Virus record (IMG/VR): IMGVR_UViG_3300043436_004382
Coordinates: 1-64,000 of that record
Reading direction: 5' to 3' (one strand)
From: a virus
Length of the DNA stretch: 64,000 bases
Part shown: positions 1 through 61,319 of the stretch, piece by piece
How the letters are laid out: each line of letters opens with the position of its first letter
Position numbering within the stretch: the stretch's first letter is position 1
Translations under genes and position numbers: made by a program
The notes under the pieces: model-generated
The model's input: only the letters and a program-made list of their open reading frames with translations
What the model was told of the DNA's origin: nothing
Databases searched by the model: none

Positions 1-83
1 GTAGGCATTCCAAGTTCTCTGAGTCGGTTCTCTTCGTCTCTACTAAGATTTTCAAGTACGAATTGTTTAAATGTCTTTACCAT
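1..83 (-). CDS. Partial CDS (N-terminal 27 aa; remainder beyond the window start), a paralog of the 102..644 gene
   Basis: nt 1-77 are ~90% identical to nt 560-644. The minus-strand ATG at 83 gives MVKTFKQFVLENLSRDEENRLRELGMPT, matching the MIKSFKQFVLETLSNDEESRLRELGMPT start of the next gene. Confidence 0.5.
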   Translation of the reverse strand, partial: MVKTFKQFVLENLSRDEENRLRELGMP

Positions 84-101
84 AGTTTTGCGTTTTATGT
101 T

Positions 102-644
102 TTATTCAGATACGTCATCATCCTCTTCTTCATCATCCCGCCGATCGTACTTTGAGGCTAACGCATTGCTAACGATTTCTCTAGCTTTTTCAAAAAATCC
201 GACAGAATCTTCGTATCCGGTGATCTCATCCATTGCTAGCTCAATCTCTTCTGCAATCTCGTCAGTCTGCATTGAACTAGGATCTCCGTTTTGGAAAAAT
301 TCGCCCCAGTCAAGATCATCAAGATCAAATGATTCCTGAAGGCCTAGTTCCTTTTGACTTATGAATCCTTCCGCTTTGACCGTTGACATGTAGAAGTCTA
401 TTGAAACTGTAATCTCTGCCCAAAAATCTCTTTCAATGTCTGGGTATAGATCAGAATCTATCCCGAAATCTTCAATGTTCATGTTCCAACTTGATTCAAG
501 TTTGAGCACGTTATCGTCAACTGTGCCGCCAAAGCCTTTAGCCAATTGGTCAAGATCAATTGTAGGCATTCCAAGTTCTCTGAGTCGGCTCTCTTCGTCA
601 TTACTTAAGGTTTCAAGTACGAATTGTTTGAATGACTTTATCAT
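102..644 (-). CDS. Hypothetical acidic protein with an MIKSFKQFV N-terminus (the recurrent N-terminal motif family)
   Basis: 180-aa ORF with a poly-D/E C-terminus; the N-terminal motif is shared with many paralogs in this window. Confidence 0.6.
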   Translation of the reverse strand: MIKSFKQFVLETLSNDEESRLRELGMPTIDLDQLAKGFGGTVDDNVLKLESSWNMNIEDFGIDSDLYPDIERDFWAEITVSIDFYMSTVKAEGFISQKELGLQESFDLDDLDWGEFFQNGDPSSMQTDEIAEEIELAMDEITGYEDSVGFFEKAREIVSNALASKYDRRDDEEEDDDVSE

Positions 645-658
645 AGTTTACCTATTTT

Positions 659-1231
659 TTATCCAGGAAAGTGTGAGTACAACGTGTCAACCTTTTCTGT
701 ATATTCTGGTGCGATTGTCGTAAGCACGTCAGCCAGCAACGAGTACAGAGAAACAAGTTCAGAGTACTCTCGATATTCGCTAGTTGAATTATCGTTTCTA
801 AACAGTGCCATTACATCAATCAAGATTTCCTCAAGCAGCTCATAAATTTTTTCAGCGTCAACCTTTGCCGCGAATTCCTCATCGGATTCAACGTACTCAG
901 ATTCGGTCTTTAGATAATTATAGTAGTCTTGAGCAGAGTTCACTAGATTCTGCAGATCAGCTTGAGTATCTCTAACTTTGTGAGACTCGATCTCTTCCTT
1001 GTCGACCTTCTCTAACGAGAATAGAGGTACAGTTGCAATGTTCTCTTTTGAGTTGTGCAATTTTACCTTTGCGTATTCTCCCGTGATCGCAACCACTTCT
1101 CCCATCCCTCTGTATGATTTTACTGAATCGCCAACCTCAATGTTATTTGGATTAGAGTCCTCTTTTCTGTCAGGTTGATAAGATATTTCAAAGTCTTCTT
1201 CGAAGTTCTCGAAAAGTTTAATGTATTTCAT
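659..1231 (-). CDS. Hypothetical protein with a capsid-targeting-like N-terminus (MKYIKLFENFEED)
   Basis: 190-aa ORF; N-terminus belongs to the recurrent motif family. Confidence 0.6.
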   Translation of the reverse strand: MKYIKLFENFEEDFEISYQPDRKEDSNPNNIEVGDSVKSYRGMGEVVAITGEYAKVKLHNSKENIATVPLFSLEKVDKEEIESHKVRDTQADLQNLVNSAQDYYNYLKTESEYVESDEEFAAKVDAEKIYELLEEILIDVMALFRNDNSTSEYREYSELVSLYSLLADVLTTIAPEYTEKVDTLYSHFPG

Positions 1232-1628
1232 TATACTTGATGATTAATTCTCCCAATACTTCAATAATACCGACTATTCTCTGAAATTCCATCTGCTTTA
1301 GCTTGATGGCTTTAGTTGAACCGTCAATCGTCTTTAAGTGTTCGGCTAATTCTTTTTTTGCATCAGCTACATCAAATTTACCAGCAGCTGCCTTTTTATA
1401 GTAAGGAAATTTTACCTTAAAGTGTTGATAAGTAAGTAGAGCATCTCCGCCCTTTTCCTTTGCGTTCTGTGCGATCTTTGAAGCACCGGCAAGACGAGTC
1501 TTTGCAAATTCTTCCAAGGATTCATTTTTCTTTGCTTCATTGATGACGAACTCTCTGAAGCTGAATTCAGTCTTTATTTCTGAGTTTCCTCTAAGTTTTT
1601 GGTGTAAATCCCAATTAATTATTGACAT
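1218..1628 (-). CDS. Hypothetical protein
   Basis: 136-aa ORF in the same minus-strand gene array. Confidence 0.45.
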   Translation of the reverse strand: MSIINWDLHQKLRGNSEIKTEFSFREFVINEAKKNESLEEFAKTRLAGASKIAQNAKEKGGDALLTYQHFKVKFPYYKKAAAGKFDVADAKKELAEHLKTIDGSTKAIKLKQMEFQRIVGIIEVLGELIIKYNEIH

Positions 1629-1707
1629 TATATTAGATTTGCGTTTTTTACAGCAGTTTTTATCATATCCACAATAAACTCTAGTCTAGAGTCAATGCTT
1701 CATAGGG

Positions 1708-3444
1708 TTATTTATACTCTATTCGAATCCTTGACTTAAATTCTTGTGGAAATTGATCGCCTGCTGACTTCATGAGATCCGCAAAACAGCCGTCCAAGAA
1801 ATAGGTGACAGCCCAGTCCTCTGGAGTACGAATAGAACGCCCGACTCCCTGTAACACAGCGATTGAGGTCTTCCAGTTGTACCATTTTTGGCTGTATTCC
1901 AATTTTGCAGCAACGTACTTGTCGCCAAGGTGAGGATATGGAACCTTTAGGAATATTTGGAATCTGCTGTGATCATCGACCATGTTCAGACCCTCTAGAA
2001 TGGAAGGTCCCATTAGGACCATGCCCTTCTTTTTAATCATTTTCTTTAGAGCAAGTTCCTTTTCGCCGGAACCTTTATATAGCAGAATGCGTTTCTTAAC
2101 ATCCTTGGGAAGGCCATTAAAAATCTTAGTATTCAATTCATAAGAACCGGAATGGATGATCCCAGAGTCCTCAGAGTGCTCACGAATGATTCTGGTTACC
2201 GTATCTATTGCCCATTGTAAGTTATCGTTCAAGAATCTGGCTGACATTTTCTTACCTGGGTAAAAAATAATCGGCGACCTCTCCCAATTGAAGTTACTTT
2301 CAATCTTGAAGTACTTTGCCTTCTTGATTCCGTGATTTCTCATGAAGTCTCCAGCACCTCCCATCGTTGCAGTCATCAGTAACTTAAACCCGAACTTTGT
2401 AAAGAAGTGCTTTTGTAGCAAGTAGTACTCATCAATGCAGTTAAATGTGATTGACTTCTCTCCAGGATTCTTTACGAGCTTTTCAAGACCTACCTTGTCA
2501 ATAATATCACAGTAATCTTCCAACTTACAGTGAACGTCCTTCACCCAATCCGCAAGGTTGAAAACCGCAAGCCATTCTAGTGGAATGTTCTCCTCTACGA
2601 ATTCTTCACCTGCATTTTCTCTAAGAGGAGCGGTTGATTGCACAAGCGTAGCTAGCAACTTAGTGACCTCTCTTAAAAGTTTAAGTAGAGTCGAGTGATC
2701 CTCGTGCTCGTAAATCAAGTTAATTGCTTTCTCCAGTCTCTTAAAATTAACAGCTGGTGCCTTTTTACCAATATCCTCAAGCCCTTCTGCAAGCTTTTGA
2801 GCCTTGCTCACGATTTCGGTTGAAACGATTGGGCTAAAATGACTCTGTACAATGTCTAGAAGCTTGTGAGCCTCATCACATACGACAAAATCTCTTTGCG
2901 GAAAAGGAGAGCCTCTGCCCGTACCTTGCTGCTGTTGTTCAACATAATTTCTTTGAATTAGAGCATAGGGATAAGTAAGTAGAGCGATCGGAGATTTAAT
3001 AGCCTTTTTGCGTGAGGTTAAGTAGCCACAGTGCTTAAAACAAGGCAAAGATTCTGCAGCTTCATAGGTTGTGCCCTTGTTCTTACACTCACCGACTGAG
3101 AATTTCTCGCCATTCACCGCACACGTGTAATTATCGACGCCCTTGATGTTGCCCCAATTCCAGAGCTGCATTTTACGAAAGTCCTTTACGTACTGCTCGT
3201 GCAAAGAAAGATCAGACGCTAAGATGTAGCCTCGATTACCCTTGAATGCCAAAAAATCCGCGAACAACATTGCAATAACTGACTTACCAGAACCAGTTGG
3301 AGCATCAAGTAGATAGATTCCGTTTGGATCCTCCTCATAGGCTTCTATAATATCAATGATTGCCTCTTGCTGTTGCGGTCTGAACTCCAATCCTGGGTGC
3401 TTGCCCTTTACGAACTGTTCAAACTCTGCTTTTAGTTTACCCAT
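1708..3444 (-). CDS. DEAH-box superfamily-2 helicase, DinG/Rad3-like
   Basis: Walker A APTGSGKS, DEAH box VCDEAH, and C-terminal motif VI QGVGRSIRTPEDWAVTYFLD (DinG-like). Confidence 0.75.
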   Translation of the reverse strand: MGKLKAEFEQFVKGKHPGLEFRPQQQEAIIDIIEAYEEDPNGIYLLDAPTGSGKSVIAMLFADFLAFKGNRGYILASDLSLHEQYVKDFRKMQLWNWGNIKGVDNYTCAVNGEKFSVGECKNKGTTYEAAESLPCFKHCGYLTSRKKAIKSPIALLTYPYALIQRNYVEQQQQGTGRGSPFPQRDFVVCDEAHKLLDIVQSHFSPIVSTEIVSKAQKLAEGLEDIGKKAPAVNFKRLEKAINLIYEHEDHSTLLKLLREVTKLLATLVQSTAPLRENAGEEFVEENIPLEWLAVFNLADWVKDVHCKLEDYCDIIDKVGLEKLVKNPGEKSITFNCIDEYYLLQKHFFTKFGFKLLMTATMGGAGDFMRNHGIKKAKYFKIESNFNWERSPIIFYPGKKMSARFLNDNLQWAIDTVTRIIREHSEDSGIIHSGSYELNTKIFNGLPKDVKKRILLYKGSGEKELALKKMIKKKGMVLMGPSILEGLNMVDDHSRFQIFLKVPYPHLGDKYVAAKLEYSQKWYNWKTSIAVLQGVGRSIRTPEDWAVTYFLDGCFADLMKSAGDQFPQEFKSRIRIEYK

Positions 3445-3808
3445 TTTTCAATTCTACCGCTTTTATTAATAAACTTGCCGTTGCGTAGTTGGTTGCAATC
3501 GGAATATTGTGCACGTTACACAAGCGCAACAGCATTTGCACATCGACCTCATGTGGATGTGATGAGAGTGGATCAATGAAGAAGATCACTCCATCTACCT
3601 TGCCTTCCACTAGCTCGGCTGCAATTTGTGCATCTCCGCCCTGAGGACCTGAGAATTTTCTCTGTACGCTAAGGCCTGCATGCTCAATGTGAGCGCCTGT
3701 TGTACCAGTAGCGACCAACTGGTGCTGTTTAAAAAAGTCAAGGCGTTTCATGATGAATGCCACCATGTCCGCCTTTTTATTATCGTGTGATATTACTGCT
3801 ATTCTCAT
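3437..3808 (-). CDS. mgsA: Methylglyoxal synthase
   Basis: 123 aa. Aligns along its full length to E. coli MgsA: VISHDNKK, ATGTTG, SGPQGGDAQIAAELVEGKVDGVIFFIDPL, HEVDVQMLLRLCNVHNIPIATN. Confidence 0.8.
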   Translation of the reverse strand: MRIAVISHDNKKADMVAFIMKRLDFFKQHQLVATGTTGAHIEHAGLSVQRKFSGPQGGDAQIAAELVEGKVDGVIFFIDPLSSHPHEVDVQMLLRLCNVHNIPIATNYATASLLIKAVELKNG

Positions 3809-4035
3809 TTTGTTTCTACCTTTCCGTATGTTTCAATCCAGACCTTGGCTCCACATGATAGCGGAGCGTCTGGTGAATATTTTATTTTTGCTGCCGGCAA
3901 ACCATCCTGCCCGTAAATGATTGCCTCATTTGCGTACTCATTCGTCTTATAGGTTTTACAAGTCAAGACCGGTCGGTTTTCGCCCTTGTTATTGGCCTTG
4001 ATATTGTGTTGATTTACGTGAATTATTGTCTTCAT
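3805..4035 (-). CDS. Hypothetical protein (TGA stop)
   Basis: 76-aa ORF. Confidence 0.35.
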   Translation of the reverse strand: MKTIIHVNQHNIKANNKGENRPVLTCKTYKTNEYANEAIIYGQDGLPAAKIKYSPDAPLSCGAKVWIETYGKVETK

Positions 4036-4037
4036 AG

Positions 4038-4358
4038 TTAAAAAGTTTCTTTATCCCAGCCGTCCTCACTGTGCATGTACTCGCAGCACGGATATTCTCG
4101 GCCAAGATCATCAATATAACACCAAACCTTTCCAGCCTCAATCCATTTCCAGTCCTTGCCTTCTTCGCCGTCCGGTAATTCAGGAGTGTCTAATGGAGGA
4201 TGATATGCATTCACATCAACTGAATAATGATTGCAACTGCATCCTCTATGTACACAGTCATCGCACGAACTTGGATTTCCACCGTCTGCGTATCCTGGCC
4301 CATAGCACCAGGTCGCAATCTTTCCGCAATCGCAGAGTTCTTTACCAGCTATCGACAT
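4038..4358 (-). CDS. Cys-rich hypothetical protein (possible zinc-binding)
   Basis: 106 aa with 11 Cys, including CDC and CSC pairs. Confidence 0.45.
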   Translation of the reverse strand: MSIAGKELCDCGKIATWCYGPGYADGGNPSSCDDCVHRGCSCNHYSVDVNAYHPPLDTPELPDGEEGKDWKWIEAGKVWCYIDDLGREYPCCEYMHSEDGWDKETF

Positions 4359-4489
4359 CAGTTAAGTCTATTTTTACCCTTGCGGTATGTGAGTATACTT
4401 CAATACCTTCTCCGATTCCATTTGGTGTAATCGACCAGGTTAGGAGTCCAATCTCTCCGTACAGGGACTTGATATGTGAGCACCACTTA

Positions 4490-5227
4490 TCAAACCGTTT
4501 CTGCTGTTTTTCGTTTAGCTCTACTGTTATTACTTTTCGATTTGACATTGTATTTCTTAAATGTTTTACTGAACCTCTTTTCCCAAGTTTTGATACCTCG
4601 TATTCCCTTCATTTCGTCCGCTGCTCCTGTTGATAAGTAGGCTTGAATCTCGTCAGCTACAACCTTTTCAGGATACCCGATCTGCAGAATAACGCTGGCT
4701 AGAGAATCGTGCAGATTTATCGGTAATGCAGAGATATTCTCAAGCATTTCCTTTTTATAATCAGAGTTCGTGAAGAACAAAGCATGTGCCATTTCGTGAT
4801 CCATTACCCATGAGTCTAATGCGTCTACTCCGAGTAGATAGAAGTTACCTCTCTTTTGGTGTTGACGAATTCGCCACAAAATATTCATCATGTGTTCGTC
4901 ATACGGAGTTATCATATCAGTCTCATAGTCTAATTGATTATAACAACCCTCAACTTCGGAGCTTGGAACATTATAACCGCACCAATCAAAAGTATACGAG
5001 AAGTAATCCTTATTCATGCGTTTTCGGTAATGGTTCATGTAGGCAAAGATATTGAAGTTGCGGCCTCTAAACTCAGAAAAGGCAGACTCGTAGTACTCTT
5101 GTGCTCGCAAGAAGAGCATTGCTCTATCGTAATCATCGGCCACTTGCACCGCGTAAATTTTTGGTGCAACCTCGTACAGTGAGTACGTTACGATTGATAA
5201 ATCTTCTGTGTGAGATATTAATTTCAT
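4490..5227 (-). CDS. Hypothetical protein with an HExxH motif (possible zinc metallopeptidase)
   Basis: VMDHEMAHALFF motif in a 245-aa ORF. Confidence 0.45.
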   Translation of the reverse strand: MKLISHTEDLSIVTYSLYEVAPKIYAVQVADDYDRAMLFLRAQEYYESAFSEFRGRNFNIFAYMNHYRKRMNKDYFSYTFDWCGYNVPSSEVEGCYNQLDYETDMITPYDEHMMNILWRIRQHQKRGNFYLLGVDALDSWVMDHEMAHALFFTNSDYKKEMLENISALPINLHDSLASVILQIGYPEKVVADEIQAYLSTGAADEMKGIRGIKTWEKRFSKTFKKYNVKSKSNNSRAKRKTAETV

Positions 5228-5280
5228 AATTATATTATACTCATTTTACAAATTAGTAGCGTTTCATTTTACATATTATC

Positions 5281-5307
5281 AAAAAAGGCAACCATTTGGC
5301 TGCCTCT
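5281..5307 (-). terminator. Rho-independent terminator (minus strand)
   Basis: GGCAACC-ATTT-GGCTGCC hairpin followed by a T-run on the minus strand. Confidence 0.4.
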
Positions 5308-5596
5308 CTATAATTTTCCAGTCAATACGTAGTAGATCGAGATCAGTGCAATAACAACTGCCGCTACGACTATTGTCCATGAAATGATCTTAGTTGTATC
5401 CTCGACCTGTTTACGAGTTCGACCTTGCCATTTATTTTTATCCCATCTATTTTCCATGAACTAGAATTTTTAACCTCCTAAAACGTCTTCTATTATGATT
5501 TCCATTTGATAAATTTAAAAAAGAAGAGGGAGGAATCCAACCCACCGTCACGGCCATTATGGCTTGCTCTCATTAGTGTCACTGAGCTACTCTTCT

Positions 5597-5681
5597 TGGT
5601 GCGGATGAAGGGACTCGAACCCCCACGTCGTGAAACACTAGATCCTAAGTCTAGCGCGGCTACCAATTACGCCACATCCGC
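5597..5681 (-). tRNA. tRNA-Leu (anticodon TAG), class II with long variable arm, CCA encoded
   Basis: Reverse complement gives GCGGATG-TG-GCGTAATTGGTAGCCGC..CTAGA-CTTAGGA-TCTAG..long variable arm..GGGGGTTCGAGTCCCTT-CATCCGC-ACCA. Confidence 0.75.
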
Positions 5682-5800
5682 ATTTTAAAGAACTTGTTTT
5701 TTTAATTTAACCTATTAGAATAATATCAACTACAATTTCTACAACACCAAGTGCTTTCATTCTATTCATTTGTTATTCTATATACGGTTATTATACCCAA

Positions 5801-6280
5801 TTAAACGGTGTGCGGTATCTGAACTCTCACACAAGTTTGAGGTTGGTGCTCATTCATCAAGAAATTATTGATGTAGCCCATAATATTGGCTGCTCCAATC
5901 GGATTCGCTGAGTGCACATAAACTTGTGGAAATCTAATCTGTAGGCCAATCTTTCTAAGTCTTGAGGTATCCAACGCTTCTGGGTACAAATCATAGAAAT
6001 AGTTAACCAACCATTTAGCACAATCGTATCCAGTTTTCTCCGTGATATTATTATAGTCAAGAGTGTAGTTAGGACTCACGTTATTGAAGTATTCTGACAT
6101 TGCTGAGTCACCCAGGTCGTGATCCAATGAGATCATGTGAATGTTATCTAATCCAAGTTCTTTCACCTTGTCAACGAACTCCTGATAGTTTCTAACCACT
6201 ATCCAATCTCCGCCGGCTGGATCAATTTTCGGTGTACGTACATCATCTAAGTAAATGCGAACTAATTTATTCTCCTCCAT
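5801..6280 (-). CDS. Hypothetical protein (IYLDDVR ... ISLDHDLGD motifs)
   Basis: 159-aa ORF immediately upstream of an RNA ligase; function not recognised. Confidence 0.45.
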   Translation of the reverse strand: MEENKLVRIYLDDVRTPKIDPAGGDWIVVRNYQEFVDKVKELGLDNIHMISLDHDLGDSAMSEYFNNVSPNYTLDYNNITEKTGYDCAKWLVNYFYDLYPEALDTSRLRKIGLQIRFPQVYVHSANPIGAANIMGYINNFLMNEHQPQTCVRVQIPHTV

Positions 6281-7343
6281 TTAGTAAAAATTTATTTGAA
6301 ATTGCTTTAAACGAAATTTTTCGATCGTGACTTCTGATAACAACTCCCTCTCTATCAAAATTTGGATTAAGTGTTGATTTTGCATCAGCGTAGTCAAGCA
6401 ATTGATCTATTGTATCAGGCAAAGTGAATTCGGTTTCAACGATTGGAACAATTGGTAAACCCAATCCCAAGATTAATTTAGTAAACTCTTCAAATCCCAA
6501 GTATTCTTGAGTATCAATATTGAATGCATTAAAGAAGTAAACCGCTTGGCCTCTTAATTTATACGGGTTCTTTTGAATTCCCTCACCCACTAATTCTCCT
6601 TGAATGCAGATATTGTAGCCAACTGACTCTAATTTAGTCTTAAGCTCCATTTCTCTAGCGACTTTCCAAAAAGTATTTTCATCGGTCTCAAGCAGTTCCA
6701 AATTACGGGAACAGGCTCCAAACTCTCCGTCCTTTAGGTAGAAAGTTGCGGACGATCCGTCCAATTTCTCAGTTACGTAAAAGGCCCGATCTTTCCAACT
6801 TTCGTAATGATCGGTTAAGTTCTGTACGCGCTCCTCATCAGTCTTGTGAATGAATGATGGGAACATGCCTTTAACCTTACCGGCTAATTCTGCTGGAATT
6901 GGCGGCTCATACTTAAGCACGCACATGTACTCTGTAACATCAGATCCTTCTTCGATAACTATTGCATTATCATAGGGTCCAAGCTGAAGTTGATCTCCCC
7001 AAGGCTGTTTACTGATTCCGATCTTCATTTCATCGCCCTTTTCCAAGACACTTAATGGTAAACACAGGCCTTGTGAAACTTGCCCCCTAAGTCTAATGGT
7101 TTTTAATCTGAATCCCTCTAAGTCTCCCATCTTTTTATATGAAGACTTTCTTAGGAATTCAAATTCTTTCTCCATTGGTAGAAACGAATCTATTTCAAAA
7201 TAAACGCAAAGGTCGCCCTCTGTGAATTCGCCTTTTTTTGCAACGACGTTCCAGCTATTGATCTGAACGATTTCAATTGCATCAGCCCCATCAATCGGTT
7301 TGATTGCACGGACTCTTTGAATGCTTGCTAATTTTCTTTCCAT
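6267..7343 (-). CDS. ATP-dependent RNA ligase with an N-terminal OB-fold-like RNA-binding domain (DRB0094/Rnl-type)
   Basis: Nucleotidyltransferase motif I VTEKLDGSS (KxDG). The N-terminus SIQRVRAIKPIDGADAIEIVQINSWNVVAKKGEF resembles a tRNA-binding OB fold. Confidence 0.7.
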   Translation of the reverse strand: MERKLASIQRVRAIKPIDGADAIEIVQINSWNVVAKKGEFTEGDLCVYFEIDSFLPMEKEFEFLRKSSYKKMGDLEGFRLKTIRLRGQVSQGLCLPLSVLEKGDEMKIGISKQPWGDQLQLGPYDNAIVIEEGSDVTEYMCVLKYEPPIPAELAGKVKGMFPSFIHKTDEERVQNLTDHYESWKDRAFYVTEKLDGSSATFYLKDGEFGACSRNLELLETDENTFWKVAREMELKTKLESVGYNICIQGELVGEGIQKNPYKLRGQAVYFFNAFNIDTQEYLGFEEFTKLILGLGLPIVPIVETEFTLPDTIDQLLDYADAKSTLNPNFDREGVVIRSHDRKISFKAISNKFLLNGGE

Positions 7344-7346
7344 TTT

Positions 7347-7649
7347 TTAATCTTTTATTTTTAAAATTAAGGTACCCCAACCGAGGCCAATCCAAAATTT
7401 GAACCAAATGACTTCTACACCAATCATTAAGTTAGGTGAGTGCGTATCCTTCCATAACCATTTAGGCAAACCTTTGGTTGAACCTACCGTTCGGTACGTT
7501 TTCCACCAAATTCCCAATCTTCTCTCAAGCGTCCACTTTCGTTTGTCCCACCAATTATGGTCAGTTTCCTCCTCCCATTGGTGTCTGAGCACTAGGTCGA
7601 TCTTAAGTTGACCCAGACTAGCGTGAAGGCCGTGATTACTCTTTCTCAT
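7347..7649 (-). CDS. Trp-rich hypothetical protein
   Basis: 100-aa ORF. Confidence 0.35.
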   Translation of the reverse strand: MRKSNHGLHASLGQLKIDLVLRHQWEEETDHNWWDKRKWTLERRLGIWWKTYRTVGSTKGLPKWLWKDTHSPNLMIGVEVIWFKFWIGLGWGTLILKIKD

Positions 7650-7869
7650 GGCTTGAGTTTTTGATTATTGTGTAGGTTCCGCATACTGTTACTACTTGTG
7701 GATCTCCACCGCAATTGCACTCGTTCTTAAATACGATACAGCCGTTCGCGTCCTTTGTATAGGAATCTGTCGCGTATTGGCCGCCTTCGCCGCTAATCGT
7801 GTACTTTGCCTGTTTTCCGCAGCTTGTGATAACTAAACTGATGAATATAAGTAAAACTAAATTTTTCAT
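7636..7869 (-). CDS. Small putative lipoprotein
   Basis: Signal peptide MKNLVLLIFISLVITSC with a lipobox-like ITSC. Confidence 0.5.
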   Translation of the reverse strand: MKNLVLLIFISLVITSCGKQAKYTISGEGGQYATDSYTKDANGCIVFKNECNCGGDPQVVTVCGTYTIIKNSSHEKE

Positions 7870-7870
7870 A

Positions 7871-8488
7871 TTATTTTAATTGTTTACGATAAAAAATTAC
7901 ATCATAGTGAGGAGCAACAAAATTAGCCCACTCAGCTGAAGATACTTCGTATGAATATCCTAACTTACTCAATTTTTCTATGATTTCTTTAGTTTTAGGT
8001 ATCAAATCTTCATTTAAGAAATCATGGAATTCTACAGTAATTTGATTTATTTTTGAGTAGGTTTCGTCTTGGATGTTGTTCAATAACTCATATTCTGAAC
8101 CTTCAATATCAATTTTTAATAAATCAATTTCAGTAATGTCGTTTTCTTTAATTATTTCGTCTAACGTTATTGTCAACACTTCATGTTTGACTCCATCGAA
8201 ATAATTAAAAATAGTTGAGCCATTATATGGCGAATTACTATCTTCGTAAAATTCAACAAGTTGATTTTGATTGTTTGAAATGACTCTATTATAGAGAACG
8301 TAATTATCTTTTTTGGGAATTTCGGAAAAATTTTTGAAGGAAGCTTCAACGAGTATAGCTTTCTTTAATTTATATACGTCTTCCATTTTCGTTGTAAACT
8401 CTCCTTTGCATGCTCCAAGATCTATAATTACAAGGTTTTCATTAAAGTACTCATCGAAAAAGGTATGTTCTTGAATATTGTTTTTCAT
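7871..8488 (-). CDS. FkbM-family SAM-dependent methyltransferase
   Basis: VIIDLGACKGEFT resembles the FkbM DIGANIGEF signature. Confidence 0.6.
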   Translation of the reverse strand: MKNNIQEHTFFDEYFNENLVIIDLGACKGEFTTKMEDVYKLKKAILVEASFKNFSEIPKKDNYVLYNRVISNNQNQLVEFYEDSNSPYNGSTIFNYFDGVKHEVLTITLDEIIKENDITEIDLLKIDIEGSEYELLNNIQDETYSKINQITVEFHDFLNEDLIPKTKEIIEKLSKLGYSYEVSSAEWANFVAPHYDVIFYRKQLK

Positions 8489-8489
8489 A

Positions 8490-9062
8490 TTAATCGTTAA
8501 ATAAGTTTACTAAGTAGCTAAACATTTCAAAATAGGGATGAGTGTTCGTATCATCGTATCCTAATTTTACCATGAAGTTATCATTCTCTTTCCGGTACAT
8601 CTCAAACATTCGACTGCCCGTCATCTTTGAGTACTGCACATTAGCGATACGATCGCATAACTTAACGAACACCGCGCCGGGAGTATTTCTGATTCCTTCA
8701 TAGTACTTGTCATTCGCGCGCTCATTACGGTTTTTACCTTTCTCATTAGTAACCGCATAGACGATATCAGCAGCCTCTTGACCAAGTATGGACTTTACGT
8801 CATTGTACGAAACTCGACAATCCTCTATTAAATCATGACCCCATGCTGCTCGCAAGCAGGCGGTTCTTAGTGTGACTGTCCTATCATTTCCACGATCGAT
8901 CTCACGAACTCCTGTGAAGTAGTCAACCTTATCGTCTAACAGGTGCCTGTACTTATCCGCAACATGAGCTACCATTCGTAAATGAAACTCGTAAGGTAGG
9001 TACGTATCGTACATGTGATTTGTTTCTGTGTGCTGATTAATGCACCATTGTGATGTGTTCAT
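8490..9062 (-). CDS. HD-domain (p)ppGpp hydrolase (small alarmone hydrolase, RelA/SpoT hydrolase family)
   Basis: HLRMVAHVA ... AAWGHDLIED (equivalent to AALLHDxxED) and KLCDRIANV (equivalent to DRLHNMRT). Confidence 0.65.
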   Translation of the reverse strand: MNTSQWCINQHTETNHMYDTYLPYEFHLRMVAHVADKYRHLLDDKVDYFTGVREIDRGNDRTVTLRTACLRAAWGHDLIEDCRVSYNDVKSILGQEAADIVYAVTNEKGKNRNERANDKYYEGIRNTPGAVFVKLCDRIANVQYSKMTGSRMFEMYRKENDNFMVKLGYDDTNTHPYFEMFSYLVNLFND

Positions 9063-9063
9063 A

Positions 9064-9801
9064 TTATTCCTCCATTGTTGGTTTCAACCAAATCTTTGTC
9101 ATAAAAATGTATTCAAATAGCGCAGGATACCTCATTAATACTCTGAGAGTTTCGGCAGTATCGTGTTTGAAACATTTAAGTAGTTCTTCCCTGATTCTCT
9201 CAGCTGATACGACTGCCATGAATACTTCATAATCGAAGTGCTTGATGTGCTGATGCATTTCAGCTGTGATTACAAAGCCCTTAGTGATCATGAACCTGAT
9301 CGCTCTTAGGATTCTCAAAGGATCGTCCTTGAAAGTAACCTCGCAAGGTAACGGTGTTCTAAGAACTCCATTTTTCAAATCCTCAATTCCGTTGAATGGA
9401 TCAATCAACGCTCCGTTCTCGTCCTTGGCTATTGCATTGAGCGTGAAGTCACGTCTTTCCAAGTCATCGAATAGAGTTCCTGGCTTGACGATTGGTGTTC
9501 TTGTAAAAGGTACGTATCCAATCTCTTTTCTGGCCATTACGAAATCCGCAACTCCCTGGTACTTGTGACCTTCTGGAAATTTAGCCCTGATCGTATAACA
9601 CTCTGCTGTTACCAAAAAGATCTGAAACTTCTCACGAGTCAAGTAGTCAACCAGAACTTCAAATAGGTCAGCCGCTTCCGGAAATTCTTCAATTAAAGAA
9701 TCCTTGGGCACGGCAACGAAATCAACGTCCTTTGACTGGACTCCAAGAATCTCGTCCCTGACCTTTCCACCAACTTCATAAAATTTAAAAAACGGTTTCA
9801 T
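9064..9801 (-). CDS. tRNA nucleotidyltransferase / poly(A) polymerase head domain (CCA-adding enzyme-like)
   Basis: GGKVRDEILG..DVDF, RRDFTLNAIA and DPLRILRAIRF class II nucleotidyltransferase motifs. Confidence 0.75.
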   Translation of the reverse strand: MKPFFKFYEVGGKVRDEILGVQSKDVDFVAVPKDSLIEEFPEAADLFEVLVDYLTREKFQIFLVTAECYTIRAKFPEGHKYQGVADFVMARKEIGYVPFTRTPIVKPGTLFDDLERRDFTLNAIAKDENGALIDPFNGIEDLKNGVLRTPLPCEVTFKDDPLRILRAIRFMITKGFVITAEMHQHIKHFDYEVFMAVVSAERIREELLKCFKHDTAETLRVLMRYPALFEYIFMTKIWLKPTMEE

Positions 9802-9818
9802 ATTTTTTAATATACTAA

Positions 9819-10487
9819 TTATCGGCCTTCATTTGTTTCATGGTGATCGTTTGGCAAAACCAAGCACCTAACTGGGCGATCCCTCATGATCTTTGCGATC
9901 TCCTGTAGAGAGTAAGGGCTTAGGTCATTACCGTCCATTCCAACGTCCATTGCTTTGCCTGCATGTATTTTATTCTCTGGGCCCAAGTGAACGTGACCGT
10001 GTAGGTGAATGACTCCACGATTCATATCGTGCCAGCTTGCAATGGGATAATGACACATGACCAAGGTCTTTTTAATGACCTCGCCTGGGTTTATTGAATT
10101 GGGTTCGTTTGGAATCGTAAGCTCAAGTCTCAAGTACTCGTGTACCGAACTGAACAACTTTTGGATTCCTCCCTTGTCCCTCTCGATGTGTTGGTCGTGA
10201 TTTCCGAGCAGGAGATGAATGTTCTTACACAGGATTCTCTGCCTAAACTCGGCTATATTCTCGTATCCTCCGAATGACCAGTCTCCCAAGTGGAATAGAA
10301 TATCGTCCTCCCTAACCAGGTGATTGATGTTGTTGATTATCGCCTCATTCATCTGCTCTAAGGTATCGAAATCCCTAGTCTTGCTTGACTCTGGCCAATT
10401 AGAGGTTCCCCTACAGATATTTGAGTGTTTATAGTGAGTGTCTGATGTAAACCAGATACGCTGATGTGGCTGTAATGTAATTTTCAT
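9819..10487 (-). CDS. Calcineurin-like metallophosphoesterase
   Basis: SDTH, LGDWSFGG, GNHD and HGHVH motifs. Confidence 0.7.
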   Translation of the reverse strand: MKITLQPHQRIWFTSDTHYKHSNICRGTSNWPESSKTRDFDTLEQMNEAIINNINHLVREDDILFHLGDWSFGGYENIAEFRQRILCKNIHLLLGNHDQHIERDKGGIQKLFSSVHEYLRLELTIPNEPNSINPGEVIKKTLVMCHYPIASWHDMNRGVIHLHGHVHLGPENKIHAGKAMDVGMDGNDLSPYSLQEIAKIMRDRPVRCLVLPNDHHETNEGR

Positions 10488-10496
10488 AGATATAAT

Positions 10497-10700
10497 TTAC
10501 TCTTCCTCTTGCCAAATTAGACCGTCTCCTTCAATTAAAATGTCGTCAGCTATATCCGCTAACATGTCGGGTGCCTCAATTAGAGCATCATCATTTTGAC
10601 ATATACACTCCCCAGGCCCATGACTTTCAAAGTACTTGGTGAGTTTGGCAATAGCAGCCTCCCTCTTTTCCGGAGTCCAGATTACTTTCCAATTTCTCAT
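10497..10700 (-). CDS. Hypothetical small protein
   Basis: 67-aa ORF. Confidence 0.3.
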   Translation of the reverse strand: MRNWKVIWTPEKREAAIAKLTKYFESHGPGECICQNDDALIEAPDMLADIADDILIEGDGLIWQEEE

Positions 10701-10709
10701 TGATAAATT

Positions 10710-10964
10710 TTAAATTTCATTTTCTTTGCAATACCTCAAGTAGAGAGCCTGCTGCCTGATTCCGAACTCACGAGTCAATAGGTTTGCTGGTGCTCCCTCA
10801 TTCACGACGAATGTGACGTAGCCTGCCATTCGTTGAGCATCAAATTCCTTTACTCGACCTTGCACTTTTCCAGTTGCCGGATCAGCAATCAGTCGAATTG
10901 CATTCGTTAAGTCTTTAGCGGTTTCGCAAAGATTGACCGCTTTAAATTTTTCTAGTTCTGTCAT
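10710..10964 (-). CDS. Hypothetical small protein
   Basis: 84-aa ORF. Confidence 0.3.
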   Translation of the reverse strand: MTELEKFKAVNLCETAKDLTNAIRLIADPATGKVQGRVKEFDAQRMAGYVTFVVNEGAPANLLTREFGIRQQALYLRYCKENEI

Positions 10965-11206
10965 TTCATTTGAATTAAATACTTATTTCTAACTTCAAGA
11001 GCGAGCCGACGTTGAGTGAATGTCGAAGGAGTTTCCATTCCACCTAGCGCTGACACAAAGTGATCAATCTCCTCTTCGGTCGCATGCTCACAGATGTAAT
11101 CATACTCCTCGTCAGTTATGTTAAATGCGGCCTTTATTGCATTATCGAATAGGTCTAGTATTCCACCCTTTGCTGCAAAGTTTATTTCATCTCTTATATT
11201 CTTCAC
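10961..11206 (-). CDS. Hypothetical small protein
   Basis: 81-aa ORF. Confidence 0.3.
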   Translation of the reverse strand: MKNIRDEINFAAKGGILDLFDNAIKAAFNITDEEYDYICEHATEEEIDHFVSALGGMETPSTFTQRRLALEVRNKYLIQMK

Positions 11207-11210
11207 TGTT

Positions 11211-11405
11211 TTATATGTCTTGTTTCAATATTTTTAAAACTTCTTGATTTATTTTTTTCCAATCCTCAAGGGTCACGGGGAACTTTTCATTTTCGGTTCC
11301 GCCGATCGTTATGTCAACGTAATCAGTATGAGCGACAACGTCCATGTACTGACCTGCCGATTCAAAAGATATTTGCTCAACTCTAACCTTGATGCTCGAT
11401 TCCAT
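11211..11405 (-). CDS. Hypothetical small protein
   Basis: 64-aa ORF. Confidence 0.3.
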   Translation of the reverse strand: MESSIKVRVEQISFESAGQYMDVVAHTDYVDITIGGTENEKFPVTLEDWKKINQEVLKILKQDI

Positions 11406-11479
11406 TCTATGCTGGATTTGTTATATTGTGGTGTTTATATATAACCGTTATATTCAATTTTGATAAAATTTTGATTTAT

Positions 11480-11737
11480 TTATAATTTTATACTTCGTTG
11501 TTGTATAATGTCAATCCAAGTTTTTAGTATAGTCGCATTATTTCGATTTGGTTTTCCATTTTCAACTGAAGATAGGTATTTTTGAAAAAAATACTTTAAA
11601 CTATCAACATCAGATAATTTGCAACCTGGTAATGATACATCAACCTCTTTATTATCGAGAATATACTCGTTTTTGTAATCTAATTCGTTCATAATATTAT
11701 TTGTTTGGTTTTTAAAACTTGTACAAAAATTTGTCAT
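11480..11737 (-). CDS. Hypothetical small protein
   Basis: 85-aa ORF. Confidence 0.3.
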   Translation of the reverse strand: MTNFCTSFKNQTNNIMNELDYKNEYILDNKEVDVSLPGCKLSDVDSLKYFFQKYLSSVENGKPNRNNATILKTWIDIIQQRSIKL

Positions 11738-11767
11738 TAATAATATACTATAAAAACAAAAAACTGA

Positions 11768-28974: not shown

Positions 28975-28990
28975 GCGTATTGTTAATTTG

Positions 28991-29075
28991 CGGAGAGGGA
29001 GGGATTCGAACCCCCGTTAGTGTTACCTAAAACGGTTTTCAAGACCGCCGCGTTCAACCGCTCTGCCACCTCTCC
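28991..29075 (-). tRNA. tRNA-Ser (TGA), class II
   Basis: GGAGAGG-TG-GCAGAGCGGTTGAACGC..GCGGT-CTTGAAA-ACCGT, variable arm TTTAGGTAACACTAAC, GGGGGTTCGAATCCCTC-CCTCTCC-G. Confidence 0.75.
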
Positions 29076-30353: not shown

Positions 30354-31037
30354 TTATACTAAATCTTGAGAATTTGGTTCAATGTCTATTGTGTATGGCA
30401 TTTCATATCTGAGCTCGTATCTTAGAGTAACCATTGATGCATTGATAAAAATGGTTCCATCAATCTCTTCCTTGCCTCGAGCCTCATGAATGTGGCCAAA
30501 GACATGAACTTTAGGTTTTATCTGCTTGACCTTTTCCAATAGAGTTGGACAACCTACATGGTCACGATCGTACTCAGTAAAATCAAGTATTCCTTCAGGC
30601 GGACCGTGAGTTATCAAGACATCAATTCCTTCAGGAATCAGGTCCCAATGTGGTTTAATTTCATGTGGATATCGATTGAATGCCCAGTTATGAAAGTACG
30701 GCGTGATTGGACTACCCCAAAACTTTATGCCCTCAATCGTTGCTCCACTTTCGTTTAGATAGGTAATTCCAGGATACTCTGCAATCAAGGCCTCAACCTC
30801 CTCAGGCTTGGCCACTTCAAAAAAGAAGTCATGATTGCCTGAGATTAGGATCTTATGCGTGTAAGGAAGTTTACTGAACCAGTCAAGAAACTGTCGAATC
30901 TCGGATTCGGTGCCTCGACCGCTCACATCTCCTGCGTGCACCAAAATCGGGCCACCAGGTAGGAGATCATTCATTTCCATACGGTCTTGTGCGTCTCTCA
31001 CAAGCCAATGAGTATCTGATATAAATGTTATTTGCAT
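30354..31037 (-). CDS. Calcineurin-like metallophosphoesterase
   Basis: ISDTH, HAGDVSGRG, SGNHD, THGPP and GHIHE motifs. Confidence 0.7.
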   Translation of the reverse strand: MQITFISDTHWLVRDAQDRMEMNDLLPGGPILVHAGDVSGRGTESEIRQFLDWFSKLPYTHKILISGNHDFFFEVAKPEEVEALIAEYPGITYLNESGATIEGIKFWGSPITPYFHNWAFNRYPHEIKPHWDLIPEGIDVLITHGPPEGILDFTEYDRDHVGCPTLLEKVKQIKPKVHVFGHIHEARGKEEIDGTIFINASMVTLRYELRYEMPYTIDIEPNSQDLV

Positions 31038-41875: not shown

Positions 41876-42829
41876 TTATATTTTTTCTAAGTGTTTGTCC
41901 ATTGAGATTGAATTAACTATTGCTTCGATTGCAGCTGCAATTGATGGAGCACAGCTTACCACCTGGATCTTGGGGTTATTGATTTGCTCAATAGAATCAG
42001 TAATGATTAGCTTATCAAGATCAGTTGAGCCTGCAATTCTTTCATGACCTAGGCCTGACAGTACTCCATGTGAGATCACCGCAGTTACCTTCTTTGCACC
42101 GCCTTCTTTTAAGAGTCGAGCTGCATTGACTAAGGTTCCGCCGGTGTCTATCATATCGTCCACTAGTATCACGTGACGATCCTTGACGTCTCCAATCAAA
42201 TCCATTCTCTCAATTGAATTTGGCTTGTCTCTTAGTTTTGATAGCATCGCAAAGTGAGTGTCCGGAAATTTATACAGAAACTTCTGATAGAAACGGCTCG
42301 CTCTTTTTACGCCACCTGCATCTGGGGAACAGATACAGTACTCGTCAGAGGTTAGAGTCCTAATGAATGGAGCGAATGCTACATGACCAGGAATCATGTT
42401 GACTGGAATGTCAAAGAATCCTTGAATCTGTTCTGCATGTAGATCGATTGAAATGATTCGGTTGGCACCTGCCGTTTGTAAAAGATCGGCCATTAATTTT
42501 GCACCGATTGCTCCGCGCATGCCTTCCTTTCGATCCTGTCTTGAATAGCCAAAGTACGGCAATACTACAATTACTTCAGACGCAGATGCACGTTTTGCGG
42601 CATCTATTGAGAGTAATAGTGTCAACATTTTCTCAGGAGAGGTTGTGCTTGAGACCAAGAAAACTTTCTTGTCCCTAACCGATTCCATGAACTGCGGGCT
42701 AATCTCGCCGTCAGAAAAGGTGTCCACCTTAAATTTGCCTAGAATTTGGTCGTAGTCGTCAGAGTCCAATTGGATCGCGATGTCTTTGGCTAGCTTTGAG
42801 CCGTCGATTGAGAAAATTTTGTAGTTCAT
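41876..42829 (-). CDS. prs: Ribose-phosphate pyrophosphokinase (PRPP synthetase)
   Basis: VVLPYFGYSRQDRK, DLHAEQIQGFFDIP and VDDMIDTGGT motifs. Confidence 0.85.
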   Translation of the reverse strand: MNYKIFSIDGSKLAKDIAIQLDSDDYDQILGKFKVDTFSDGEISPQFMESVRDKKVFLVSSTTSPEKMLTLLLSIDAAKRASASEVIVVLPYFGYSRQDRKEGMRGAIGAKLMADLLQTAGANRIISIDLHAEQIQGFFDIPVNMIPGHVAFAPFIRTLTSDEYCICSPDAGGVKRASRFYQKFLYKFPDTHFAMLSKLRDKPNSIERMDLIGDVKDRHVILVDDMIDTGGTLVNAARLLKEGGAKKVTAVISHGVLSGLGHERIAGSTDLDKLIITDSIEQINNPKIQVVSCAPSIAAAIEAIVNSISMDKHLEKI

Positions 42830-61300: not shown

Positions 61301-61319
61301 GTTGTTCTATTTGTATTAG

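What the first reader, a model, noticed from the sequence alone, without database searches (positions are those of the whole stretch)
3437..3808. Methylglyoxal synthase encoded by a phage
This is a near full-length MgsA homolog sharing the catalytic-site region with E. coli MgsA. MgsA diverts DHAP to toxic methylglyoxal and phosphate. A phage copy could relieve phosphate starvation of sugar-phosphate pools during nucleotide synthesis or manipulate host redox state. It is an unusual phage metabolic gene.
Basis: partly seen in the sequence, partly recalled or inferred. Interest (0 to 1): 0.55.

Follow-up and report, generated by a model that had tools for sequence, protein, structure and literature searches.

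The report
Phage-encoded methylglyoxal synthase gene
A huge bacteriophage, probably infecting Bacteroidota, carries an intact and strongly conserved copy of the bacterial enzyme methylglyoxal synthase, and more than a hundred related uncultured phages share it, so it is a real but biochemically ordinary phage metabolic gene whose role in infection is untested.

Summary
Window 3437-3808 on the minus strand encodes a 123-aa protein that passes both curated NCBIfam methylglyoxal synthase (MGS) equivalog models. It keeps every catalytic and phosphate-binding residue of E. coli MgsA, and its predicted structure matches solved MGS structures (TM about 0.9).

It is a short-form enzyme like those of Thermus and Flavobacterium. 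It lacks the E. coli C-terminal helix with Arg150, which strengthens the cooperative response to phosphate.

The setting is clearly a huge phage. There are 23 tRNAs, almost all genes lie on one strand, T4-type topoisomerase II is present, and the closest relatives are the 634-642 kb uncultured phages predicted to infect Bacteroidetes.

The gene is not a contaminant. It overlaps both neighbouring ORFs, its GC3 matches the phage, and the identical protein occurs in 47 blocks of the metagenome collection, in the same gene order in all six places shown. Relatives at 61-99% identity occur in 132 IMG/VR loci, many on contigs of 200-373 kb. dN/dS is 0.01-0.06.

In an NJ tree the phage copies form a clade next to Flavobacterium MgsA, with moderate bootstrap support.

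mgsA has already been listed as a viral auxiliary gene in virome surveys, without analysis. My verdict is a new member of a known kind, of moderate interest. One unexplained point is that in related phages mgsA often directly precedes RNA-repair-type phosphoesterase genes.

The parts
3437..3808 (-). mgsA: 123-aa short-form methylglyoxal synthase. Residues (E. coli numbering in brackets): H8(H19), D9(D20), K12(K23), T34/T36/T37(T45/T47/T48), S53-G54(S65-G66), D59(D71), D79(D91), H86(H98), D89(D101), R95(R107).
3805..4035 (-). Upstream 76-aa ORF (phrog_8676, unknown function). Its stop overlaps the mgsA start codon by 4 nt (ATGA), which implies co-transcription and translational coupling.
1708..3444 (-). 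Downstream 578-aa DNA helicase (phrog_2488; ResIII/Helicase_C_2). Its ATG lies 8 nt before the end of mgsA (ATGGGTAA). This adjacency is kept in L001-L009, L012 and L016 and in six metagenome contigs.
4038..5227 (-). A run of three overlapping small or unknown ORFs (4038-4358, 4342-4548, 4490-5227) upstream in the same orientation. They are conserved in the closest phage relatives and have no family assignment.
5801..10487 (-). RNA end-healing and sealing module about 2 kb upstream of mgsA: cREC_REC (5801-6280), RNA ligase (6267-7343), FkbM methyltransferase (7871-8488), tRNA nucleotidyltransferase (9064-9801), and metallophosphoesterase phrog_547 (9819-10487). In other phage subclades the orthologues of the metallophosphoesterase or of cREC lie directly next to mgsA.
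30354..31037 (-). MPPED2-like metallophosphoesterase. Its orthologue is the gene immediately downstream of mgsA (gap 8 nt or less) in L010, L013, L018, L022 and L023.
41876..42829 (-). Ribose-phosphate pyrophosphokinase (PRPP synthetase)-like gene. It is the only other central-metabolism, phosphate-consuming enzyme recognised in the window. It is context for the phosphate/nucleotide hypothesis, not shown to be linked to mgsA.

Best explanation
The ORF is a functional, canonical methylglyoxal synthase (EC 4.2.3.3: dihydroxyacetone phosphate -> methylglyoxal + inorganic phosphate). It is carried as an auxiliary metabolic gene by a lineage of huge phages (contigs of up to 373 kb) related to the 'Mahaphage' group, which is predicted to infect Bacteroidota. 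The phage copies group together beside the Flavobacterium short-form MgsA, as expected if the gene was acquired once, long ago, from a Bacteroidota-type genome; the direction of that transfer was not resolved. The gene has since been inherited vertically, adjusted to phage base composition, and kept under strong purifying selection. It is expressed as part of a polycistronic block (phrog_8676 ORF - mgsA - helicase).

Most likely role (inferred, not shown): in the infected cell it opens the methylglyoxal bypass. Phosphate locked in triose phosphates is released, and upper glycolysis and pentose-phosphate flux can continue when free phosphate is scarce. This would help the very large nucleotide demand of a huge genome. 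Because it lacks the C-terminal Arg150 helix, its response to phosphate should be less cooperative than that of the E. coli enzyme, as measured for the tail-less Thermus enzyme.

Shown here: identity, an intact active site, the fold, phage residence, conservation and selection. Inferred: catalytic activity, hexamer formation and the physiological benefit. I put about 0.85 on 'active MGS maintained by the phage' and about 0.45 on the phosphate / sugar-phosphate-relief role specifically.
For: - **Identity.** It passes both NCBIfam MGS equivalog cutoffs. It is 47-52% identical to seven solved MGS. The AlphaFold model (pLDDT 91.7) superposes on Thermus, Bacillus and E. coli MGS at TM 0.88-0.93, rmsd 1.2-1.8 A.
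- **Active site.** All 13 catalytic, phosphate-binding and allosteric-path residues checked are invariant in the window protein and in 80/80 IMG/VR homologues. The E. coli reference sequence was verified against 1b93.
- **Phage residence.** The window has 23 tRNAs and nearly all ORFs on one strand. It encodes T4-type topoisomerase II subunits, RNA ligases and Tad6, plus lysozyme and tail-collar domains. The best relatives of its topoisomerase and helicase are 462-642 kb uncultured phages and Lak phages. Those genomes are predicted to infect Bacteroidetes.
- **Host clue.** A T9SS Por_Secre_tail protein lies at 37885-39807.
- **Integration.** mgsA overlaps both neighbours. Its GC3 is 0.44, like its neighbours (0.42-0.45), against 0.24-0.29 for Flavobacterium mgsA.
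- **Conservation.** The identical protein is indexed in 47 blocks of the metagenome collection, with the same gene order in all six places shown. There are 132 IMG/VR loci at 61-99% identity, and about 60 of the 80 fetched share other window genes. dN/dS is 0.012-0.064 against L001, L003, L004 and L005.
- **Vertical descent.** MgsA divergence tracks or is lower than that of neighbouring genes.
- **Phylogeny.** The phage sequences form a clade sister to Flavobacterium (57% identity). Bootstrap is 73/100 for the phage clade and 67/100 for phage plus Flavobacterium.
- **Tail-less enzymes work.** Thermus MGS without the tail is an active hexamer with a Hill coefficient of 1.5, against 3.4 for E. 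coli (PMC4133812).
Against: - No activity, oligomer or expression data exist.
- The phosphate-relief role is an argument from bacterial physiology only.
- No phoH, pstS or glyoxalase genes were recognised in the 64 kb window. The phage therefore shows no obvious partner for either phosphate scavenging or methylglyoxal detoxification here, although most of the genome is outside the window.
- Methylglyoxal would also damage phage DNA and proteins.
- In related phages mgsA sits next to RNA-repair-type phosphoesterases rather than metabolic genes. The metabolic explanation does not predict this.
- The closest GenBank huge phages (LR745206, LR756502, LR756500) have no MgsA hit, so the gene is accessory, not core.
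- Bootstrap support for a single acquisition is only moderate, and the cellular sampling was limited by the search patterns used.
Confidence: 0.7

Rival explanations
1. The enzyme is a canonical MGS, but its benefit is the product rather than the phosphate. Methylglyoxal would be made as an electrophilic toxin that arrests host growth and macromolecular synthesis, drains low-molecular-weight thiols, or excludes competing phages or defences.
For: The same evidence shows an intact MGS. Loss of the Arg150 tail predicts weaker phosphate cooperativity, so output would be harder to shut off. The gene lies in a region rich in host-conflict genes: Tad6 anti-Thoeris, RNA-repair genes and an MPPED2-like phosphodiesterase. 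No glyoxalase was detected in the window. Methylglyoxal toxicity is established bacterial physiology (my own knowledge; see also PMC3412212, listed).
Against: The short form is inherited from the cellular lineage (Flavobacterium enzymes are 124 aa), so it is not a phage-specific de-regulation. Methylglyoxal would damage replicating phage DNA and phage proteins equally. No data address this.
Confidence: 0.15
2. The protein has an MGS fold but has been recruited to the phage RNA-repair / anti-defence module. It would act on, or bind, a phosphorylated substrate other than DHAP, together with the adjacent metallophosphoesterase or cREC enzymes.
For: In 34 distinct phage loci the gene immediately downstream (gap 18 nt or less) is a metallophosphoesterase in 12. 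These belong to two families that are barely related to each other. cREC_REC lies within two genes in 7 loci. No such neighbours occur at cellular mgsA loci.
Against: Every DHAP- and phosphate-contacting residue is invariant, and the protein scores above the equivalog cutoff built for true MGS. Nothing in the sequence indicates altered specificity. Each adjacency type is confined to one subclade, so there are only two or three independent events. The region may simply be an island of accessory early genes. In the window itself mgsA adjoins a helicase instead.
Confidence: 0.1
3. The gene is not a phage gene at all. It would be host DNA brought in by mis-assembly or mis-binning, or a recently captured and decaying passenger.
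For: The GenBank 'phage' hits are all unannotated records at 53% identity or less, and their phage origin was not checked. One close relative (L105) sits on a 1.9 kb contig binned as a Flavobacteriaceae MAG.
Against: The ORF overlaps phage ORFs on both sides. The same gene order appears in independent assemblies from ENA, JGI and Logan and in IMG/VR contigs. Its GC3 matches the phage. dN/dS is 0.01-0.06. Even the most divergent group (L067) carries a T4-like DNA polymerase closest to the same huge phages.
Confidence: 0.02

Closest known systems
Short-form methylglyoxal synthase of Thermus (PDB 1wo8, 2x8w, 2xw6) and Bacillus subtilis MgsA (6f2c)
   Same: 52% identity, the same length class, the same fold (TM 0.90-0.93, rmsd 1.3-1.6 A) and all active-site residues. 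Like the Thermus GH5 enzyme, it lacks the C-terminal Arg that forms the inter-subunit salt bridge.
   Different: It is encoded by a phage and is even shorter (123 aa). Its kinetics and oligomeric state are unknown.
E. coli MgsA (PDB 1b93, 1egh, 1ik4)
   Same: 47% identity over the core. H19, D20, K23, T45, T47, T48, S65, G66, D71, D91, H98, D101 and R107 are all conserved.
   Different: It lacks the 11 N-terminal residues and the C-terminal helix with Arg150, so the strongly cooperative phosphate response of the E. coli enzyme (Hill coefficient 3.4) is not expected.
Flavobacterium chromosomal MgsA (e.g. L081-L104)
   Same: This is the nearest cellular relative found (55-57% identity). It is the same 124-aa short form and is the sister group in the NJ tree.
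   Different: GC3 is 0.24-0.29 against 0.44 in the phage. No neighbouring genes are shared with the phage. The direction of transfer is not resolved.
mgsA listed as a viral auxiliary metabolic gene in virome surveys (Lake Baikal, PMC8066274; plastisphere viromes, PMC12397222)
   Same: The same KEGG-level annotation on viral scaffolds. The Baikal case is a 120 kb scaffold with a T4-like virotype that took up to 8.8% of reads in one sample.
   Different: Those reports only list the gene. They do not examine residues, phylogeny, selection, gene order or lineage, and I could not check whether their scaffolds belong to this clade.
Cyanophage phosphate- and carbon-rerouting auxiliary genes (pstS, phoA, talC, CP12)
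   Same: It would work like them in concept: a host-derived metabolic gene kept by a phage to sustain nucleotide synthesis under nutrient limitation (my own knowledge, not tested here).
   Different: There is no homology, the pathway step is different, and the host phylum is different.

Membership tests
Methylglyoxal synthase (EC 4.2.3.3; TIGR00160 / NF003559) | Scores above the curated equivalog HMM cutoffs over the full length | tested here: met
   NF003559 167.1 bits (cutoff 84); TIGR00160 160.1 bits (cutoff 146.9); residues 1-120 aligned
Methylglyoxal synthase (EC 4.2.3.3; TIGR00160 / NF003559) | Catalytic base Asp71 and His98 (E. coli numbering) | tested here: met
   D59 and H86. Both are invariant in 80/80 phage and 66/66 cellular homologues; reference sequence verified against 1b93
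Methylglyoxal synthase (EC 4.2.3.3; TIGR00160 / NF003559) | Other essential acidic residues (Asp20, Asp91, Asp101) and the phosphate-binding set (His19, Lys23, Thr45, Thr47, Thr48, Ser65, Gly66) | tested here: met
   D9, D79, D89, H8, K12, T34, T36, T37, S53 and G54 are all present and invariant among the phage copies
Methylglyoxal synthase (EC 4.2.3.3; TIGR00160 / NF003559) | MGS alpha/beta fold | tested here: met
   AlphaFold model pLDDT 91.7, pTM 0.85. The top 26 Foldseek PDB hits are all MGS, with TM 0.86-0.93
Methylglyoxal synthase (EC 4.2.3.3; TIGR00160 / NF003559) | Homohexameric assembly | not tested
   Only a monomer was modelled. The conserved D9 and R95 fit the known interfaces but do not prove them
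Methylglyoxal synthase (EC 4.2.3.3; TIGR00160 / NF003559) | Converts DHAP to methylglyoxal plus phosphate | not testable with these tools
   Requires an enzyme assay or complementation
E. coli-type (long-form, strongly phosphate-cooperative) MgsA | C-terminal helix carrying Arg150, which salt-bridges to Asp20 of the neighbouring subunit | tested here: not met
   The protein ends about 20 residues earlier. The Arg150 column is a gap in the window protein and in 80/80 phage copies. It therefore belongs with the short-form subclass (Thermus, Flavobacterium), not the E. coli-type subclass
Phage auxiliary metabolic gene | Lies within a phage genome with phage genes on both sides, is conserved among related phages, and is under purifying selection | tested here: met
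   Flanked by a phage helicase and a PHROG ORF, with overlaps. Same gene order in related contigs. 132 IMG/VR loci. dN/dS 0.012-0.064

The most novel reading that the evidence does not exclude
The phage MgsA is not simply a glycolytic bypass enzyme. It would be a working part of the phage's RNA end-healing / anti-defence island. It would be coupled to the metallophosphoesterase or cREC enzymes that directly follow it in many related phages, either by acting on a non-DHAP phosphorylated substrate or by using methylglyoxal or phosphate release as part of a counter-defence mechanism.
Probability: 0.1. Interest if true: 0.75.

Novelty: new member of a known kind. Interest (0 to 1): 0.45.

Why it matters
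If the enzyme is active, a widespread lineage of huge phages of Bacteroidota reprogrammes the triose-phosphate node of host glycolysis. That step is not among the classic phage auxiliary functions, and its product is a potent electrophile.

This would extend the idea of phage-driven phosphate and carbon rerouting, known mainly from marine cyanophages, to jumbo phages of heterotrophs. It would also raise the question of how the phage tolerates or exploits methylglyoxal.

Practically, the protein is small, is predicted with high confidence and has many natural variants, so the hypothesis is easy to test in vitro. The finding is not a new kind of system. The enzyme family is well known, and mgsA already appears in virome gene lists.

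Tried and rejected
- **DNA similarity.** Megablast of window 1-12000 and of L067 against GenBank phages gave no match.
- **PHROGs.** No family matches the protein.
- **GenBank phage tblastn.** It returned only 22 unannotated records at 53% identity or less. I did not verify whether these are truly phage and do not count them as evidence.
- **Promoter and terminator scan of 1-7500.** Counts were at the shuffled expectation, so the transcription unit is inferred only from the ORF overlaps.
- **Pfam on unknown ORFs.** A search of the conserved unknown ORFs next to mgsA in other subclades, and of small window ORFs, found nothing meaningful.
- **Rfam.** Only tRNAs were found.
- **Literature.** Searches for 'methylglyoxal synthase' with Arg150, with RNA repair / cREC, or with jumbo phages found no paper linking them. 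The huge-phage paper does not mention methylglyoxal, glycolysis or phosphate.
- **L063-L067 subclade.** I considered that it might be cellular, because of bacterial-looking sugar-nucleotide genes and because L105 is binned as Flavobacteriaceae. I rejected this because its T4-like DNA polymerase is closest to the same huge phages.
- **Contamination or mis-assembly.** Considered and rejected (see rival 4).
- **Searches not used.** I did not run the exhaustive representative-protein search, because that library carries no names or genomic context and could not separate phage from cellular relatives.
Full report
**1. The observation**

An ORF occupies exactly window 3437..3808, on the minus strand, with an ATG start and 123 codons.

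- It matches both NCBIfam 'equivalog' models of methylglyoxal synthase (MGS) above their curated cutoffs: NF003559 at 167.1 bits against 84, and TIGR00160 at 160.1 against 146.9, aligned over residues 1-120.
- It also matches the Pfam MGS-like domain.
- Every hit among solved structures is an MGS: Thermus 1wo8 at E 4.8e-36, Borrelia, Bacillus and Thermotoga enzymes, and E. coli 1b93 at E 1.3e-29.

**2. Active site and fold**

I checked my copy of the E. coli MgsA sequence against PDB 1b93 and it was identical over 152/152 residues. I then aligned it with the window protein, 80 viral homologues and 66 cellular homologues.

All residues known to matter in the E. coli enzyme are present in the window protein. 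Their importance is established enzymology, from my own knowledge.

| E. coli | Window protein |
|---|---|
| His19 | H8 |
| Asp20 | D9 |
| Lys23 | K12 |
| Thr45, Thr47, Thr48 | T34, T36, T37 |
| Ser65, Gly66 | S53, G54 |
| Asp71 | D59 |
| Asp91 | D79 |
| His98 | H86 |
| Asp101 | D89 |
| Arg107 | R95 |

All of these are invariant in 80/80 viral copies.

An AlphaFold model built on 43 sequences has pLDDT 91.7. It superposes on solved MGS structures at TM 0.86-0.93 and rmsd 1.2-1.8 A. The next-best folds, the MGS domains of carbamoyl-phosphate synthetase, are far behind.

The one structural difference from E. coli is length. The phage protein lacks the 11 N-terminal residues and the C-terminal helix that carries Arg150. 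That is the normal short form, as in Thermus (126-132 aa) and Flavobacterium (124 aa). For Thermus sp. GH5 MGS, the tail-less enzyme is an active hexamer with a lower Hill coefficient towards phosphate (1.5 against 3.4 in E. coli). Adding the tail raises it to 1.99 (PMC4133812).

**3. Is it really in a phage?**

Yes.

- The window has 23 tRNA genes, and almost all ORFs are on one strand.
- Recognised genes and domains include T4-type topoisomerase II large and medium subunits, a phage DNA helicase, two RNA ligases and a CCA-adding enzyme.
- Also present are cREC_REC, Ro60/TROVE, ClpP, the anti-Thoeris protein Tad6, a lysozyme, a tail-collar domain and sigma factors.
- There is no nucleotide-level relative in GenBank phages.
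- The topoisomerase is closest (56%) to the 634 kb and 642 kb uncultured phages LR745206 and LR756502. The helicase is closest to LR756500 (462 kb) and the Lak phages.
- The source paper places those genomes in the 'Mahaphage' clade and predicts Bacteroidetes hosts (PMC7162821).
- A protein with a cohesin domain and a T9SS C-terminal sorting domain (37885-39807) independently points to a Bacteroidota host.

**4. Is the gene a stable resident?**

- **Overlaps.** The mgsA start overlaps the stop of the upstream phrog_8676 ORF (ATGA). Its stop lies 8 nt inside the helicase ORF (ATGGGTAA).
- **Composition.** Its GC3 (0.44) matches its neighbours (0.42-0.45), unlike Flavobacterium mgsA (0.24-0.29).
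- **Recurrence.** The identical protein is indexed in 47 blocks of the metagenome collection. All six places shown (ENA, JGI, Logan) have the same order: RNA ligase - cREC - small ORFs - MGS - helicase.
- **Relatives.** A scan of IMG/VR found 132 loci encoding relatives. The 80 fetched are 61-99% identical, and many sit on contigs of 200-373 kb. The four contigs behind L006-L009 are 270.1-271.3 kb, which suggests complete genomes.
- **Shared genes.** About 60 of the 80 share other window genes within 10 kb. The most divergent group (L067 and relatives) carries a T4-like DNA polymerase closest to the same huge phages.
- **Selection.** Nei-Gojobori dN/dS against the four closest orthologues is 0.012-0.064.
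- **Divergence.** MgsA is as conserved as, or more conserved than, its neighbours. Against L001, for example, it is 99% identical, compared with 91% for the helicase and 66% for another ORF.

These points rule out contamination, mis-assembly or a decaying passenger.

**5. Origin**

The nearest cellular proteins found are Flavobacterium MgsA at 55-57% identity. This scan of one genome per species was limited by the search patterns used. None of the top 120 hits in the large protein database (68% identity or more) comes from a contig longer than 373 kb or carries an organism name.

In an NJ tree the viral sequences form one clade. It also contains L105, a 1.9 kb contig in a 'permissive' Flavobacteriaceae bin, which I suspect is phage DNA. 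This clade is sister to Flavobacterium. Bootstrap support is 73/100 for the viral clade and 67/100 for the viral-plus-Flavobacterium clade.

A single old exchange with a Bacteroidota lineage, followed by vertical descent, is the simplest reading. Support is moderate, and the direction of transfer is unresolved.

**6. Prior knowledge**

- PHROGs has no family for the protein.
- GenBank phages gave only 22 unannotated records at 53% identity or less, and I did not assess whether they are truly phage.
- The huge-phage paper does not mention methylglyoxal.
- mgsA has been listed as a viral auxiliary gene in a Lake Baikal virome, on a 120 kb T4-like scaffold that took up to 8.8% of reads in one sample (PMC8066274).
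- It is also listed in plastisphere viromes (PMC12397222).

In both cases the gene appears only as a list entry. The category is therefore known, while the lineage-level picture given here is new detail.

**7. Mechanism**

Shown here: an intact, conserved MGS that the phage maintains under selection.

Inferred: it converts DHAP to methylglyoxal and phosphate in the infected cell.

The most likely benefit follows the bacterial role of the methylglyoxal bypass (my own knowledge). It would release phosphate from triose phosphates and relieve sugar-phosphate build-up when free phosphate limits GAPDH and ATP synthesis. That would sustain pentose-phosphate and nucleotide supply for a very large genome. 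The window also encodes a PRPP-synthetase-like enzyme (41876-42829). The missing Arg150 tail predicts a less cooperative response to phosphate, but that feature is shared with Flavobacterium and is not a phage innovation.

Rival readings:
- (a) Methylglyoxal itself is the point, for host arrest or conflict.
- (b) The protein works with the RNA-repair or anti-defence genes around it.
- (c) It is an artefact. This one is rejected.

No glyoxalase, phoH or pstS genes were recognised in the window. Most of the genome lies outside the window, so this says little.

**8. An unexplained pattern**

I examined the gene immediately downstream of mgsA (gap 18 nt or less) in 34 distinct phage loci.

| Gene immediately downstream of mgsA | Loci (of 34) |
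|---|---|
| Calcineurin-type metallophosphoesterase, family like window 9819-10487 | 7 |
| Calcineurin-type metallophosphoesterase, family like window 30354-31037 | 5 |
| Helicase (also the arrangement in the window) | 6 |

- The two phosphoesterase families are barely related to each other.
- The first matches phrog_547 and Aquifex aq_1665. The second resembles the phosphodiesterase MPPED2 at E 1e-43.
- cREC_REC lies within two genes of mgsA in 7 loci.
- Cellular mgsA loci share none of these neighbours.

Each arrangement is confined to one subclade, so there are only two or three independent events. The region may simply be an island of accessory genes. Still, the repeated adjacency to phosphate-processing enzymes is not predicted by the purely metabolic explanation. 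It is the basis of the low-probability novel reading.

**9. Verdict**

The gene is a canonical short-form methylglyoxal synthase carried by a lineage of huge phages that probably infect Bacteroidota. It is a new, well-supported member of a known kind (host-derived auxiliary metabolic genes). Its physiological role is untested, and one contextual oddity deserves follow-up. Interest is moderate.

Noticed in passing
IMG/VR loci L010, L013, L018, L022, L023 (family like window 30354-31037); L027-L029, L036, L038, L042, L056, L057 (family like window 9819-10487); L040, L041, L046, L053 (cREC like window 5801-6280): In related phages mgsA is directly followed (gap 18 nt or less) by one of two barely related metallophosphoesterases, or lies within two genes of a cREC_REC gene. 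It travels with the RNA end-healing and sealing module. Cellular mgsA loci show no such neighbours.
   Followed up: partly
window 19730-19802 (-), next to 20126-21751 (-): A tRNA-like gene that ARAGORN calls 'SeC(tca)' (Rfam tRNA, 48.7 bits) lies about 330 nt downstream of a Ro60/TROVE-vWA gene. It could be a UGA suppressor, hinting at stop-codon recoding. It could instead be the tRNA-like module of a YrlA-type Y RNA partner of Ro60. No Y RNA family reached the Rfam threshold.
   Followed up: partly
window 22232-25811 (-), plus 5597-5681, 28990-29075 and 61319-61396: The window holds 23 tRNA genes, 19 of them clustered within 3.6 kb. They include three tRNA-Met(cat) and an odd, weakly scoring tRNA-Ser with anticodon ACT (37 bits).
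   Followed up: no
window 28007-28696 (-): A homologue of the type I Thoeris inhibitor Tad6 (Pfam PF25188, E 8e-22). Its orthologues lie within a few kb of mgsA in several related phages (L028, L036, L042, L046).
   Followed up: no
window 37885-39807 (-): A 640-aa protein with a cohesin domain and a T9SS C-terminal sorting domain (Por_Secre_tail). This is a Bacteroidota-specific secretion signal encoded by a phage. It is useful as a host indicator, and it suggests the phage places a protein on the host surface.
   Followed up: no
window 41876-42829 (-): A ribose-phosphate pyrophosphokinase (PRPP synthetase)-like gene. It could be a genuine Prs or an Adps-like enzyme of a phage NAD-reconstitution pathway. 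No Nampt- or Namat-like partner was recognised nearby.
   Followed up: no
window 13585-15463 (-): A GDP-mannose 4,6-dehydratase and an adjacent epimerase/reductase, which make up a GDP-fucose-type sugar-nucleotide pathway in the phage. Nearby are PA14/GLEYA (12679-13539) and Laminin_G_3 (18176-19312) carbohydrate-binding proteins.
   Followed up: no
window 17487-18155 (-) and 29250-30086 (-): Phage-encoded ClpP protease and an SPFH/Band-7 protein.
   Followed up: no
window 102-1628 (-), compared with L147, L150, L151, L152 and L003: There is a variable cassette just downstream of the helicase. Some otherwise near-identical genomes carry a single 409-413 aa ORF where the window has ORFs of 136 aa and 190 aa. 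The 180-aa ORF at 102-644 is only 66% identical between genomes whose MgsA is 99% identical.
   Followed up: no
L105 (CBFHOD010000112.1, 1.9 kb contig of a 'permissive' Flavobacteriaceae MAG bin): Its MgsA groups tightly inside the phage subclade with L067, and L067's DNA polymerase is huge-phage-like. The contig is probably phage DNA mis-binned into a bacterial MAG.
   Followed up: partly
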